Positions 33,196-36,254 of a stretch of DNA of 64,000 nt are shown here, piece by piece. Source of the stretch: Promethearchaeota archaeon. GTDB lineage: Archaea > Asgardarchaeota > Lokiarchaeia > Sigyniarchaeales > SOKP01. The stretch is taken from positions 32,001 to 96,000 of the forward strand of contig JBHLLT010000006.1 in assembly GCA_048938855.1 (NCBI GenBank), written 5' to 3'. The position numbers and the translations under genes were made by a program. Under the pieces are notes generated by a model. It was not told the origin of the DNA. It searched no databases and worked only from the letters and a program-made list of their open reading frames with translations. Within the stretch, counting starts at the first letter, position 1. Each line of letters starts with the position of its first letter.

Positions 33196-34343
33196 AAGTA
33201 GTAAAATTGGCAAAAACTAGAGGAGAATCTTACTATATTAAAGGAAGAAATATTCCTAAAGGATGTAAGTATTGTCTAAAAGGATCTAAAGTGGTTTTAT
33301 TTTTAAATGGTATATGCCAAAGACCAGAACATTGTTTTTGGTATTGTCCAATATCAGAAGAGAGAAAAGGTAAAGAGATAACATTTGCTGATGAAATTGA
33401 AATCCAAAGTAAAGAGGAATTACTCAAAGAAATTGAAAAAATAAGTGCCCAGGGTATGAGTATCACAGGGGGAGAACCACTTTCAGAATTAAACCTCGAG
33501 AAAACGATTGAGTATATTGAATATGTTAAAAAAGAGAAAGGAAAAAAGTTTCACGTCCACTTGTATACAAACGGTATCAATTTTAATGAAAATATTGCCA
33601 ATAGACTTTCTGTTGCGGGATTGGATGAAATAAGATTTCATCCTGCGGAAAAACATTGGAAAAACATTAATTGGGCCTTAAAAAAAAATATTAGCGTAGG
33701 CGCTGAAGTTCCAGTAATTCCAGGAAATGAATATAGGAGAAATCTTGAGGAATTTGTTTATTATTTGGACAACATTGGTGTTGACTTTATCAATTTAAAT
33801 GAGTTTGAATATTGCTTTCCTAACAGTCAATTTCTTAAAGAACGAGGTTTCAAATTAAAAAAAAATTCAATAGCTGCTGTTATCAATAGTCAAGAATCAG
33901 CTCTTAGTATAATCCGTAAAATAGGAATCAAGGTCAATATACAAATGCATTTCTGTCCAATAAGAGCCAAAGATTATCATCAATTAAAGAATAGATATAT
34001 TCGGAGAGCTAAGAATATTAGATTACCTTTTGAAGTAATCACTGACGAAGGACTCTTATTATATGCTCAAATTGAAGGAGAAAAAAAAGATCTGGATAAG
34101 TTTTATGAAAGTGTGGTATTCAACCTAAAAATTAATGAAAATCAACTCAGCAGAGAAGAAGATCATATTAAAATGCCCTTCTATATCTCAATTGAAGATC
34201 GAATCGTGGCGTTAATAAAGCAGTATAAATTAAAAGGTTTTATAATTGAAGCTACTCCTTTTAGACGTTTAAAATATAGGCAAATTACAGAAAAAACTCC
34301 CTTAGAAGTATTTAAGAATGAATATGGATTTAATAGAAATTAA
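33192..34343 (+). CDS. Radical SAM protein (archaeal PFL-activase-like family)
   Basis: PKGCKYC, Cys cluster, SITGGEP, HLYTNG, LDEIRFHP. Confidence 0.88.
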   Translation: MKVVKLAKTRGESYYIKGRNIPKGCKYCLKGSKVVLFLNGICQRPEHCFWYCPISEERKGKEITFADEIEIQSKEELLKEIEKISAQGMSITGGEPLSELNLEKTIEYIEYVKKEKGKKFHVHLYTNGINFNENIANRLSVAGLDEIRFHPAEKHWKNINWALKKNISVGAEVPVIPGNEYRRNLEEFVYYLDNIGVDFINLNEFEYCFPNSQFLKERGFKLKKNSIAAVINSQESALSIIRKIGIKVNIQMHFCPIRAKDYHQLKNRYIRRAKNIRLPFEVITDEGLLLYAQIEGEKKDLDKFYESVVFNLKINENQLSREEDHIKMPFYISIEDRIVALIKQYKLKGFIIEATPFRRLKYRQITEKTPLEVFKNEYGFNRN

Positions 34344-34785
34344 AAACGTAAAATCAAAAGATTTAAAGCAAATCGTAAATCTAGAAAAAGAAATTTTTAA
34401 AAAGAATGCATTTTCTAAAGATTTATTAAAAAAGTTGATAAAAGATAATACACTCTTTTTAAAATTAGAAACTGGAAGAGTAATAAAAAAAATAATTGGT
34501 TTTTTAATAGCTATAAGAGATGAAAGAGAAAGAATAAATATAATTAATTTTCTTATTAAAATTAAATTTCAAAATAGAGGGTATGGTTCATATCTTCTTC
34601 AAAAAGCTATTAGTGAAATAAGAAAAATGAAGGGAATTAAAAAAATCGTACTTAATGTTCAAATAAGTAATTTAGTGGCAATTAATTTATATGAAAAATT
34701 TAAATTCAAAAAAAACCCAGATATTCTTGAGCATTACTATCAATCAGGTGAAAATGCCTACTTAATGGAATTAGAAATTGACTAA
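34318..34785 (+). CDS. GNAT N-acetyltransferase, RimI/Ard1-like
   Basis: FQNRGYGSYLL, LNVQISNLVAINLYEKF, YYQSGENAYLM. Confidence 0.88.
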   Translation: MNMDLIEIKNVKSKDLKQIVNLEKEIFKKNAFSKDLLKKLIKDNTLFLKLETGRVIKKIIGFLIAIRDERERINIINFLIKIKFQNRGYGSYLLQKAISEIRKMKGIKKIVLNVQISNLVAINLYEKFKFKKNPDILEHYYQSGENAYLMELEID

Positions 34786-34876
34786 AACTAAAACTTATAA
34801 ATAAATTCTATTATATTTTTTGTAAAAATCAATTTAATTATTATCTAGATTTTAAATGAAAAGGTGTTAAATAAAA

Positions 34877-35029
34877 ATGGCTCCAGTAGATAAAGAACTA
34901 CAAGAAGAAATTAAAAAAGGGGTTACACTTCAAAAAGTCGATGAAGCAGAGTTAAAAAGAAGAGAAGAAGAAAAAAAGAAACGCATGGAAGAGTTAGAAA
35001 AAGTTAAACAAGCTTTAGGCGAAAAATAA
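34877..35029 (+). CDS. 50-aa WH2-like small protein (absent from the ORF track)
   Basis: MAPVDKELQEEIKKGVTLQKVDEAELKRREEEKKKRMEELEKVKQALGEK; AGGTG Shine-Dalgarno-like element upstream, T-rich tract downstream. Confidence 0.75.
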   Translation: MAPVDKELQEEIKKGVTLQKVDEAELKRREEEKKKRMEELEKVKQALGEK

Positions 35030-35180
35030 TAGTTCTTCTAAGTTAATTGAGTGAGTTTTTATCTTTTTTATTTATTTTATTTTTCTTTGAAACATTATTC
35101 AAACTAATTTGAATTAAGCTTTTCTTAAATTTTGAATTATTTATTAATAAATATCATTTTTCAATGAGTAAGTTTTAGAA

Positions 35181-36254
35181 TTGAAAATTCTCAATATAGA
35201 TCGAAAACGTGGAGAAATAACAGTTAAGACCGAAAGCCTCAATGATTTGTGGTCTTTGTATAATATCATCAATAAAGATGATGAAGTATCTTCCTTAACT
35301 CAAAGAAGAGTTGTTCTTAAAGAAGGAACTTCAGGAGAGCGAAAATTGATGAAACTAAGACTTAAAGTTGAATCTGTATCTTTCCATGAATTTTCAAACA
35401 GATTAAGAATAAAAGGTAAAATTTTAGAAGGTCCAGAGGATTACGTTAGCTTTGGGGCGTATCATACATTTAATATTGAAGTTTCTCAAAAATTAACTAT
35501 AATAAAAGAAAAATGGTTGAATAATGAATTTAATAGGCTTAAAGAAAGCTCAAAATTCGACTCAAACTTTATTACTTTAATAATCGCAATTGAAACGGGG
35601 TTAGCAACAATGGCTATTATCACAAATTTCAGTCATAATCGGATCTCTACCATTAGAAAAAATATACCTGGTAAAAGGTATAAGCAAACTTATAGAAATG
35701 TTGCATTACAAGAATTTTATACTGATATTCAGAAGATTGTAATAGAAAATATAAAAAATACAGAGATTAATCTTATTGTTGTATGTGGACCTGGAAACAT
35801 TAAAGACAATTTTATAAAATTCCTTAAAAATAACCCTGCTTTTGATTTTAAAGGCAACATTGAGACATGTCATGCAAGTTCAGGAACAGAAAGTGCAATT
35901 AAAGAAACTTTAAAATCAAATAAATTAGCAAAATTTAGGGATAGAATTAAAATTTTAGAGGAAGCTGAAAAAATAGAAAACGTTATGACACAATTTGCCA
36001 CTGATCCTGATCTTATCGTTATAGGTTTTGATGAGGTAACTTCTGCTTCTGAAAAAGGAGCCATTAAAGAGTTATTAATAGCAGATATATTAATCAGAGG
36101 ATCCTCTAAAGAAAAAAAGTTAATTATCGAGGAAATTATCACAAACGTGGAAAAAGCGGGTGGAAAAATTCTTATCATGAGTACAGAAAACTTGACTGGA
36201 GAACAACTAGTTGATCTTGGTTCAATATTAGGAATTTTAAGATATAAAATTTAA
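35181..36254 (+). CDS. pelA: mRNA surveillance protein pelota
   Basis: DLWSLYNII, RLRIKGKI, YHTFNIE, IPGKRY, GPG, LGSILGILRY. Confidence 0.95.
   Translation: MKILNIDRKRGEITVKTESLNDLWSLYNIINKDDEVSSLTQRRVVLKEGTSGERKLMKLRLKVESVSFHEFSNRLRIKGKILEGPEDYVSFGAYHTFNIEVSQKLTIIKEKWLNNEFNRLKESSKFDSNFITLIIAIETGLATMAIITNFSHNRISTIRKNIPGKRYKQTYRNVALQEFYTDIQKIVIENIKNTEINLIVVCGPGNIKDNFIKFLKNNPAFDFKGNIETCHASSGTESAIKETLKSNKLAKFRDRIKILEEAEKIENVMTQFATDPDLIVIGFDEVTSASEKGAIKELLIADILIRGSSKEKKLIIEEIITNVEKAGGKILIMSTENLTGEQLVDLGSILGILRYKI

What the first reader, a model, noticed from the sequence alone, without database searches (positions are those of the whole stretch)
34877..35029. Unannotated 50-aa stand-alone WH2-like protein: candidate archaeal actin-monomer binder
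Seen: ELQEEIKKGVTLQKV followed by a charged linker and an amphipathic helix (MEELEKVKQAL), with its own SD-like element and downstream T-tract. Established: WH2 is a short helix plus an LKKV-type motif (WAVE-type LLEAIRKGIQLRKV), and Asgard archaea have actin, profilin and gelsolin. Inference: a thymosin-like sequestering peptide or a free W-C module. It is below usual ORF length cut-offs and easily missed.
Basis: partly seen in the sequence, partly recalled or inferred. Interest (0 to 1): 0.78.

Follow-up and report, generated by a model that had tools for sequence, protein, structure and literature searches.

The report
Asgard WH2-like actin microprotein gene
This 50-codon frame is a real, very strongly conserved small gene of Loki-type Asgard archaea whose first half resembles the WH2/beta-thymosin peptides that hold actin in eukaryotic cells; relatives are fused to archaeal profilin or come down with the archaeon's own actin. 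It is therefore a good candidate for an undescribed archaeal actin regulator, but actin binding by the small protein has not been shown.

Summary
The ORF at 34877-35029 (+) exists as described and is a real gene. It has 252 homologues of 50-51 aa, a median dN/dS of 0.07, a conserved promoter-like element, SD and oligo-T tract, and fixed synteny. This scan has already found the same family on many other genomes.

The protein itself does not reach Pfam WH2. However, it is 62% identical over both halves to a family member that passes the Pfam WH2 cut-off and matches N-WASP WH2 at E=5e-7. The family profile's three best PDB hits are WH2-actin complexes.

The roughly 45-aa module (short helix, G..L.KVD loop, long charged helix) also occurs in other proteins:
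- fused to Asgard profilin;
- fused to a Ras-like GTPase, LRR and RHH domains;
- as ten tandem copies in a 56.4-kDa protein of L. ossiferum.

By my mapping of a published table, the ten-copy protein co-precipitates with Lokiactin (log2 4.5, above actin itself). The L. ossiferum small orthologue is detected as protein but is only weakly enriched, and not significantly (log2 0.57, adjusted p 0.105).

The family is confined to one order of Lokiarchaeia, so an origin before eukaryotes is not supported. Direct actin binding remains unproven; I put it at about 0.5.

The parts
34785..34815 (+). Conserved promoter-like element (AAACTAAAACTTATAAATAAATTCTATTATA) with a TATA-like core at 34795-34803, about 60-90 nt upstream of the start codon
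   Evidence: At least 80% conserved columns across 28 aligned upstream regions. Its role as an archaeal TATA/BRE is inferred, not measured.
34860..34868 (+). Shine-Dalgarno-like AAAGGTGTT (GGTG at 34863-34866)
   Evidence: Conserved in the same alignment.
34877..35029 (+). Coding sequence of the 50-aa microprotein, stop codon included
   Evidence: 252 homologues, dN/dS 0.073, and start codon alternating between ATG, GTG and TTG.
34886..34942 (+). WH2-like half (residues 4-22): amphipathic helix 6-14, then the G15-V-T-L18-Q-K20-V21-D22 loop
   Evidence: AF2 secondary structure. The family profile aligns positions 4-22 to N-WASP, Spire and MIM WH2 chains. I12, G15, L18 and K20 are invariant in the close family.
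34943..35023 (+). Family-specific C-terminal helix (residues 23-49): charged REEEKKKR stretch, then amphipathic M37-E-E-L-x-K-V-K-x-A-L47
   Evidence: AF2 helix 23-49 with pLDDT 86-96 per 10-residue block. R29, E32, K35, R36, M37, E39, L40, K42, K44, A46 and G48 are invariant in the close family. R36 and E39 are invariant, and E32, K33, K35 and L40 at least 90% conserved, in the diverse set.
35056..35088 (+). T-rich tract downstream of the stop codon, a likely archaeal oligo-T terminator
   Evidence: Conserved TTTTTAT..TTTTTTATTTATTTTATTTT in 28 aligned downstream regions. The terminator function is inferred.
34318..34785 (+). Upstream neighbour: RimI-like GNAT N-acetyltransferase (context only, not part of the gene)
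   Evidence: Pfam Acetyltransf_1 at 3.8e-13. TIGR01575 rimI at 76.9 bits, below its cut-off of 86.4. Adjacent in 47 of 47 loci where the small gene was found, and also upstream of the L. ossiferum orthologue.
35181..36254 (+). Downstream neighbour: Pelota (context only)
   Evidence: TIGR00111 pelota at 243.9 bits. Adjacent in 47 of 47 loci.

Best explanation
The gene encodes a free-standing copy of a roughly 45-residue Lokiarchaeial protein module. The module has a short amphipathic helix, an extended G-x-x-L-x-K-V-D loop and a 27-residue charged/amphipathic helix.

Most likely the N-terminal half binds the hydrophobic cleft at the barbed face of monomeric Lokiactin, as a WH2 or beta-thymosin peptide does. 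The C-terminal helix would then either run up the front of the monomer, giving thymosin-like sequestration or buffering of G-actin, or dock onto partners that carry the same helix.

Shown here:
- it is a real gene under strong constraint;
- the WH2 layout and spacing are present;
- it is related to a member that passes Pfam WH2;
- the same module is fused to Asgard profilin;
- the ten-copy form co-purifies with Lokiactin;
- the L. ossiferum small orthologue is made as protein.

Inferred, not shown: direct binding of this 50-aa protein to actin, the binding site, and whether it sequesters monomers or delivers them.
For: (1) The gene is real.

(2) Layout: AF2 gives H6-14, loop 15-22 and H23-49 at mean pLDDT 89. 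I12-x-x-G15-x-x-L18-x-K20-V21 has the same spacing as the N-WASP and MIM WH2 in the printed alignments.

(3) The family profile A2 searched against 177,635 PDB sequences: the top three hits are N-WASP tandem WH2 3m3n_W (7e-5), Spire DDD 3mn7_S (0.0043) and N-WASP 2vcp_D (0.046). The N-WASP matches fall on profile positions 4-22 and 7-22; the Spire best stretch covers only 5-18.

(4) Family member P0143 is 62% identical to the query over residues 7-43, which spans both halves. It scores 23.7 bits on Pfam WH2 against a cut-off of 23.1 and E=4.9e-7 against N-WASP WH2.

(5) In the 1.84-billion-protein library, the profile hits P0168 at E=2e-4. P0168 has three repeats of EIKKGxxLK[KR]T, and its only PDB matches are N-WASP and WIP WH2.

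(6) Fusions: proteins of 251-387 aa carry an N-terminal domain matching the Asgard profilin structures 5zza, 5yed, 5zzb and 7pbh (E=2e-9 to 7e-5), followed by 1-4 modules.

(7) The 488-aa L. ossiferum protein made of ten modules has a monoisotopic mass of 56.41 kDa and an interpolated tag of 4083. It therefore corresponds to GNAMCCOK_04085 in the Lokiactin co-IP table of bioRxiv 10.1101/2025.11.30.690169. That entry shows log2 4.53, adjusted p 0.0021, 44 peptides and 70.5% coverage, and ranks fourth among non-contaminant proteins, above actin.

(8) The L. ossiferum small orthologue (8.24 kDa as a 69-aa call, tag 02436 against an interpolated 2443) is detected with 5 peptides and 43.5% coverage, and in all 16 proteomes.
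Against: The query itself gives no Pfam WH2 hit at E<=10, and neither does its whole genome. Only 3 of 46 diverse members hit WH2 at E<=1.

Single-WH2 PDB matches score about the same as an unrelated EF-1beta hit, roughly 16 bits. The better E-values come from constructs with repeated WH2.

The C-terminal half, which has no WH2 counterpart, is the most conserved part. In the own-genome GTPase fusion it is the half that is best kept. The constrained function may therefore lie there.

The L. ossiferum small orthologue is only weakly enriched with Lokiactin, and not significantly (log2 0.57, p 0.042, adjusted p 0.105), although formaldehyde cross-linking was used. Its WH2-like half is also degenerate, with no Gly and AMKHV in place of LxKV.

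My mapping of tags to genes rests on mass and gene order, not on sequences. The flanking genes are translation-related, not cytoskeletal. Short linear motifs converge easily.
Confidence: 0.5

Rival explanations
1. The module is a general helical docking or oligomerisation element, and the conserved C-terminal helix is the functional part. The small protein would regulate or compete with larger module-bearing proteins (the Ras-like GTPase-RHH, LRR-RHH, profilin-fusion and ten-repeat proteins) without touching actin. The WH2 likeness would be convergent or incidental.
For: The C-half is the most conserved part: R36 and E39 are invariant, and E32, K33, K35 and L40 are at least 90% conserved, across diverse members. 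The own-genome GTPase protein (L002) keeps RMEELEKVEEAL but has a poor N-half. The module is also combined with LRR and RHH domains. The small orthologue is not significantly enriched with Lokiactin. The query gives no Pfam WH2 hit.
Against: I12, G15, L18, K20, V21 and D22 are invariant or nearly so in the close family. The L..EI..G..L..ID pattern is kept in 37 repeats of the ten-repeat proteins. The N-half, not the C-half, draws the WH2 hits. The ten-repeat form comes down with actin. The profilin fusions point to actin.
Confidence: 0.3
2. It is a translation- or ribosome-associated microprotein, or a dedicated substrate or partner of the neighbouring RimI-like acetyltransferase or of Pelota.
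For: The order NTase, radical-SAM, RimI-like GNAT, small gene, Pelota, radical-SAM is invariant in 47 of 47 loci, all on one strand. The GNAT is also upstream in L. ossiferum. The protein is abundant in proteomes.
Against: The gene has its own conserved promoter-like element and oligo-T tract, so co-transcription is not implied. The protein is neutral and rich in E and K (14 acidic, 14 basic residues, pI 6.3), unlike basic ribosomal proteins. Nothing links the module's fusion partners to translation.
Confidence: 0.1
3. It is a chance ORF in AT-rich DNA, or a non-coding element.
For: It is only 50 codons long in DNA of about 27% G+C.
Against: dN/dS is 0.073. Variable sites number 18, 9 and 45 of 48 by codon position. 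There are 252 homologues, and peptides of the orthologue are seen by mass spectrometry.
Confidence: 0.01

Closest known systems
WH2 (WASP-homology 2) domain, Pfam PF02205 (N-WASP, WAVE, WIP, MIM, Spire)
   Same: A short amphipathic helix followed by I-x-x-G-x-x-L-x-K-V at identical spacing. The family profile's best PDB hits are WH2-actin complexes. One family member passes the Pfam cut-off.
   Different: The query itself is not detected by the Pfam model. It has Q in place of the first K of LKKV. A strongly conserved 27-residue helix (REEEKKKRMEEL...) follows, which WH2 lacks. The family is archaeal and confined to one order. Actin binding is untested.
Beta-thymosin / actobindin-type peptides (Pfam PF01290 Thymosin)
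   Same: A stand-alone peptide of about 45-50 residues with an N-helix, an LKKT-type motif and a C-terminal helix. An ESM Atlas feature search lists a Thymosin-bearing cluster at rank 4, score 0.86, which is a lead only.
   Different: No Pfam Thymosin hit. The C-terminal helix begins directly after the motif, is much longer, and has no sequence similarity. Thymosin's sequestering mechanism is established knowledge and is inferred here only by analogy.
WH2-like four-residue linker motifs in Asgard two-domain gelsolins (LVDV, LKDV, LRRV; PMC9433394)
   Same: An Asgard protein segment of the LKKT type that contacts actin, as shown in the crystal structures of that paper.
   Different: Those are linkers between gelsolin domains, not an independent module. 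They have no N-helix with I-x-x-G and no charged C-helix. The 2025 preprint and 2026 Nature paper on L. ossiferum name only gelsolins and profilins as Asgard actin regulators.
Arcadin-2 of Pyrobaculum (PMC5173319)
   Same: An archaeal precedent in which a short C-terminal helix binds the hydrophobic groove of crenactin and sequesters monomers. The authors compare it with thymosin beta-4 and WH2.
   Different: No sequence relation. It belongs to a different phylum and a different actin (crenactin). It is the C-terminal peptide of a larger protein, and its orientation is reversed relative to thymosin.
Tandem-WH2 proteins (Spire, Cordon-bleu, VopL/VopF)
   Same: The 480-500-aa Lokiarchaeial proteins carry 9-10 modules in a row. 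AF2 gives a string of helices joined by low-confidence loops at the motif, with pTM 0.19. The L. ossiferum one comes down with Lokiactin.
   Different: The repeat unit is 45-46 residues with a helix of about 36 residues between motifs, which is far longer and more regular than WH2 linkers. Nucleation activity is untested. This concerns relatives, not the window's own gene.

Membership tests
WH2 domain (Pfam PF02205) | Score at or above the curated Pfam gathering cut-off (23.1 bits) | tested here: not met
   The query gives no WH2 hit at E<=10, and there is none anywhere in the genome. Family member P0143 scores 23.7 bits and P0134 scores 14.1. Only 3 of 46 diverse members hit at E<=1.
WH2 domain (Pfam PF02205) | N-terminal amphipathic helix of 2-3 turns followed by an LKKV/LKKT-type motif at fixed spacing (I-x-x-G-x-x-L-K-K-V) | tested here: met
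   AF2 predicts helix 6-14 and then a loop. I12, G15, L18, K20 and V21 have the spacing of the N-WASP and MIM WH2 in the HMMER alignments. The first K is Q in the query and K in the divergent members P0134, P0138, P0143 and P0145.
WH2 domain (Pfam PF02205) | Detectable sequence relation to proven WH2 domains | tested here: inconclusive
   The top three PDB hits of profile A2 are WH2-actin complexes, at 7e-5, 0.0043 and 0.046. An unrelated EF-1beta chain scores the same as the third. The chain query to P0143 (62% identity) to N-WASP (4.9e-7) is positive. Convergence of a 17-residue motif cannot be excluded.
WH2 domain (Pfam PF02205) | Binds the cleft between subdomains 1 and 3 of monomeric actin | not testable with these tools
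   No complex prediction or assay was available. Indirect evidence only: profilin fusions, the ten-repeat form in the Lokiactin co-IP, and the small orthologue weakly enriched without significance.
Beta-thymosin (Pfam PF01290) | Pfam Thymosin model match, LKKTET-type motif | tested here: not met
   No PF01290 hit for the query or for any of 46 members at E<=1. There is only an ESM Atlas feature neighbour at 0.86, below the 0.9 level that the tool calls more than a lead.
Beta-thymosin (Pfam PF01290) | Stand-alone peptide of about 40-50 residues with N-helix, motif and C-terminal helix | tested here: met
   The protein is 50 aa with H6-14, loop 15-22 and H23-49. Stand-alone forms of 49-60 aa dominate the family.
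Lokiarchaeial 45-aa module family (unnamed; stand-alone, profilin-fused and ten-repeat forms) | Pattern L..EI..G..L.K[VIP]D ... E-K-x-K-R-x-x-E-[LI] ... K, matched by the family profile | tested here: met
   The query is the founding member of profiles A1 and A2. The profiles recover the modules in the profilin fusions, the LRR/RHH/GTPase proteins and the ten-repeat proteins at domain E-values of 1e-15 to 1e-5.

The most novel reading that the evidence does not exclude
The Lokiarchaeial module is truly homologous to eukaryotic WH2/beta-thymosin. On this reading the actin-monomer-binding peptide, and tandem arrays of it, arose in Asgard archaea or were exchanged with early eukaryotes. Together with profilin and gelsolin it would form a third class of Asgard actin regulator, with the 50-aa protein acting as a thymosin-like G-actin buffer.
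Probability: 0.12. Interest if true: 0.9.

Novelty: new variant of a known kind. Interest (0 to 1): 0.68.

Why it matters
In the papers I could search, profilins and gelsolins are the only actin regulators named for Asgard archaea. A third class would add a missing layer of control to the Lokiactin cytoskeleton that drives the protrusions and crawling of cultured Lokiarchaeia. That class would comprise a short peptide module used free, fused to profilin, and in ten-fold arrays.

The question is directly testable. The peptide can be synthesised, rabbit actin works with Asgard regulators, and cultures and a Lokiactin antibody exist.

Because the family is confined to one order of Lokiarchaeia, it bears on how archaeal actin systems diversify, possibly by convergence on the same actin 'hot spot'. 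It does not bear firmly on the origin of eukaryotic WH2.

Tried and rejected
- Pfam WH2 and Thymosin on the query and on the whole genome gave no hit. Membership by the curated model is therefore not claimed for this protein.
- Foldseek of the AF2 model against the PDB found nothing, as expected for a 50-residue helix-loop-helix.
- A second word-index search found only one relative of P0143. Its taxon stays unknown, because cluster look-up shows only short ENA contigs.
- The neighbourhood of the ten-repeat gene in L. ossiferum holds a tRNA methyltransferase fragment, a zinc-ribbon protein, a PLP-binding protein and a thermosome fragment. This gives no cytoskeletal clue.
- The 'free W-C module' reading was rejected. 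There is no acidic tail, and the C-helix is a family-specific element that recurs in non-WASP contexts.
- 'Found across Asgard archaea' was rejected. Outside the order there were no hits, apart from weak ones in two families.
- The NCBI labels 'Thorarchaeota', 'Hermodarchaeota' and 'Hodarchaeota' on some homologues were not taken as evidence of wider spread. In the genome search, all clear matches fall in one order.

Full report
**Observation.** The DNA is about 27% G+C. The gene lies between a RimI-like GNAT (34318-34785) and Pelota (35181-36254).

**Is it a gene?**
- A word-index search found 252 proteins of 50-51 aa at 76-94% identity. All come from Promethearchaeota or Loki-type MAGs and metagenomes and are named 'hypothetical protein'.
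- In 27 related loci the frame is intact and the start codon alternates between ATG, GTG and TTG at one position.
- Pairwise Nei-Gojobori analysis gives mean dN 0.079, dS about 1 and median dN/dS 0.073. Variable sites number 18, 9 and 45 of 48 at codon positions 1, 2 and 3.
- Three flanking elements are conserved: a 31-nt element with a TATA-like core (34785-34815), an AAAGGTGTT SD (34860-34868) and a downstream oligo-T tract (35056-35088). The gene is therefore probably its own transcription unit.
- The order NTase, radical-SAM, GNAT, small gene, Pelota, radical-SAM holds in 47 of 47 loci.
- The small protein is more conserved than its neighbours. In L057, for example, it is 84% identical, against 62% for Pelota and 43% for the GNAT.

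**Anatomy.** In the close family the invariant residues are P3, D5, I12, G15, L18, K20, R29, E32, K35, R36, M37, E39, L40, K42, K44, A46 and G48. AF2, run with a 46-sequence alignment, predicts helix 6-14, loop 15-22 and helix 23-49 at mean pLDDT 89. The protein has 14 acidic and 14 basic residues and a pI of 6.3.

**WH2 likeness.**
- Pfam WH2 does not report the query, nor anything in its genome.
- The close-family profile A1 finds N-WASP tandem WH2 (0.0036) and MIM WH2 (0.9) among five PDB hits.
- The diverse profile A2 ranks N-WASP 3m3n_W (7e-5), Spire DDD (0.0043) and N-WASP 2vcp_D (0.046) first to third of 177,635 sequences, on profile positions 4-22, 5-18 and 7-22 respectively. An unrelated EF-1beta chain scores the same as the third hit, so single-motif scores are at noise level. 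The argument rests on the ranking.
- An exhaustive search of 1.84 billion representatives gave 51 hits. Among them is P0143, a metagenomic stand-alone member. It is 62% identical to the query over residues 7-43, covering both halves.
- P0143 passes the Pfam WH2 cut-off (23.7 against 23.1 bits) and matches N-WASP WH2 at 4.9e-7.
- P0168, with three EIKKGxxLK[KR]T repeats, is hit at 2e-4. Its only PDB matches are N-WASP and WIP WH2.
- The query thus belongs to a family that grades into canonical WH2 sequence, although it does not itself pass the curated test.

**The module in other proteins.** Genome and library searches show the same roughly 45-residue unit in several settings.
- (a) Proteins of 251-387 aa have an N-terminal domain that matches the solved Asgard profilins 5zza, 5yed, 5zzb and 7pbh (2e-9 to 7e-5). 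It is followed by 1-4 modules.
- (b) Proteins of 480-500 aa consist of 9-10 modules. AF2 gives about 36-residue helices separated by low-confidence loops at the motif and no compact fold (pTM 0.19, only six sequences).
- (c) The module occurs in LRR-module-RHH and RHH-module proteins. In this very genome there is also a Ras-like GTPase with a partial module and an RHH domain (L002).
- Across 37 repeats the pattern L..EI..G..L..ID...K..R...I...K is kept.

**Link to actin in published data.** Earlier notes of this scan said the ten-repeat form co-purifies with Lokiactin. I checked this myself.
- G138 is L. ossiferum B35. It has a single 6,035,313-bp contig, and its 377-aa actin has a monoisotopic mass of 42.75 kDa, the mass listed for GNAMCCOK_03343, which Table 3 of the preprint names Actin.
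- Tag numbers follow genome order: 02589 at 3.040 Mb, 03343 at 3.925 Mb and 04136 at 4.784 Mb.
- The ten-repeat gene at 4.727 Mb interpolates to tag 4083 and has a mass of 56.41 kDa.
- GNAMCCOK_04085 is listed at 56.41 kDa with 44 peptides, 70.5% coverage, log2(actin IP / IgG) 4.53 and adjusted p 0.0021. It ranks fourth among non-contaminant proteins, just above actin at 4.44. The authors do not mention it.
- The small orthologue lies at 2.869 Mb, next to a GNAT as in the window. It is a 69-aa call from GTG, and more likely 55 aa from the ATG.
- It interpolates to tag 2443 and has a mass of 8.24 kDa. GNAMCCOK_02436 is listed at 8.24 kDa with 5 peptides, 43.5% coverage, log2 0.57, p 0.042 and adjusted p 0.105. 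It was quantified in 3 of 3 actin IPs against 1 of 3 IgG controls, and detected in all 16 whole proteomes with a mean of 18.4.
- The orthologue is therefore translated and fairly abundant, but it is not significantly enriched with actin.
- Two caveats apply. The mapping is by mass and gene order only, and the WH2-like half of this orthologue is degenerate.

**Distribution.**

| Profile | Genomes searched | f1 | f2 | f3 | f4 | Other families of the class | Remaining families |
|---|---|---|---|---|---|---|---|
| A1 | 400 of the phylum | 125/134 | 1/1 | 12/14 | 4/4 | 0/7 | three weak hits |
| A2 | 332, at least 80% complete | 111/117 | not scored | 10/11 | 2/2 | 0/7 | two weak hits in f19, none elsewhere |

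- Families f1 to f4 all belong to one order, the order that contains L. ossiferum.
- Record titles name Promethearchaeota or Promethearchaeia MAGs.
- An origin before eukaryotes is therefore not supported. This agrees with a later check quoted in the scan's notes.

**Mechanism.** The best reading is a WH2/thymosin-like monomer binder. The N-helix would sit in the barbed-face cleft and L18-V21 along subdomain 1. The long C-helix would either cover the front or pointed face, giving sequestration, or serve as a docking helix. What was shown and what was only inferred are listed under Best explanation.

The main rival is that the conserved C-helix is the functional part and the protein does not touch actin. 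I put direct actin binding at about 0.5.

**Literature.** Searches for WH2 or thymosin together with Asgard terms found only the four-residue WH2-like linkers of Asgard gelsolins (PMC7444086, PMC9433394, the 2025 preprint) and no stand-alone module. Arcadin-2 is the nearest archaeal functional precedent (PMC5173319).

**Limits.**
- No complex prediction was possible.

Noticed in passing
window 34318-34785 (+), with L039:879-1364: A RimI-like N-terminal alanine acetyltransferase sits directly upstream of the small gene in 47 of 47 loci, and also in L. ossiferum. The small protein starts M-A-P in most members, so after Met removal its N-terminus would be Ala. Thymosin beta-4 is N-acetylated (general knowledge). 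Whether the microprotein is a substrate is pure speculation.
   Followed up: partly
G000:C62:12730-12876 (-); L002:1267-2217:-: The window's own genome has a second, partial copy of the module inside a 317-aa protein. That protein has a Ras/Roc-like GTPase domain (Pfam Ras at 3.4e-27), then ...REREKIHRMEELEKVEEAL, then a ribbon-helix-helix-like domain (DUF6290/NikA-like). Related LRR-module-RHH proteins exist (P0169).
   Followed up: partly
window 35112-35125: The motif AATTAAGCTTTTCT between the small gene's T-tract and Pelota is conserved across the genus. It may be the Pelota promoter.
   Followed up: no
L068 (DATKTW010000134.1): A contig titled 'Candidatus Nanopelagicaceae bacterium' carries the full Lokiarchaeial block NTase, rSAM, GNAT, small gene, Pelota, rSAM. 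The bin is probably mislabelled or contaminated.
   Followed up: no
Supplementary Table 2 of bioRxiv 10.1101/2025.11.30.690169 (CoIP Lokiactin sheet): Besides the ten-repeat protein, three further L. ossiferum proteins are enriched more than actin itself: GNAMCCOK_00333 (37.5 kDa), GNAMCCOK_02751 (67 kDa) and GNAMCCOK_04250 (20.6 kDa, 91.7% coverage, log2 5.1). They are not in the paper's list of named proteins. I did not identify them.
   Followed up: no
L026 (G215:C94): In one relative the codon at the conserved start position reads CTG rather than ATG, GTG or TTG. The true start there is unclear.
   Followed up: no
L033:2864-4327:- and relatives: In the ten-repeat proteins the unit is 45-46 residues and AF2 draws helices of about 36 residues. 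This could fit a filament-side 'ruler' as well as a nucleator. It is a speculative numerical coincidence.
   Followed up: no
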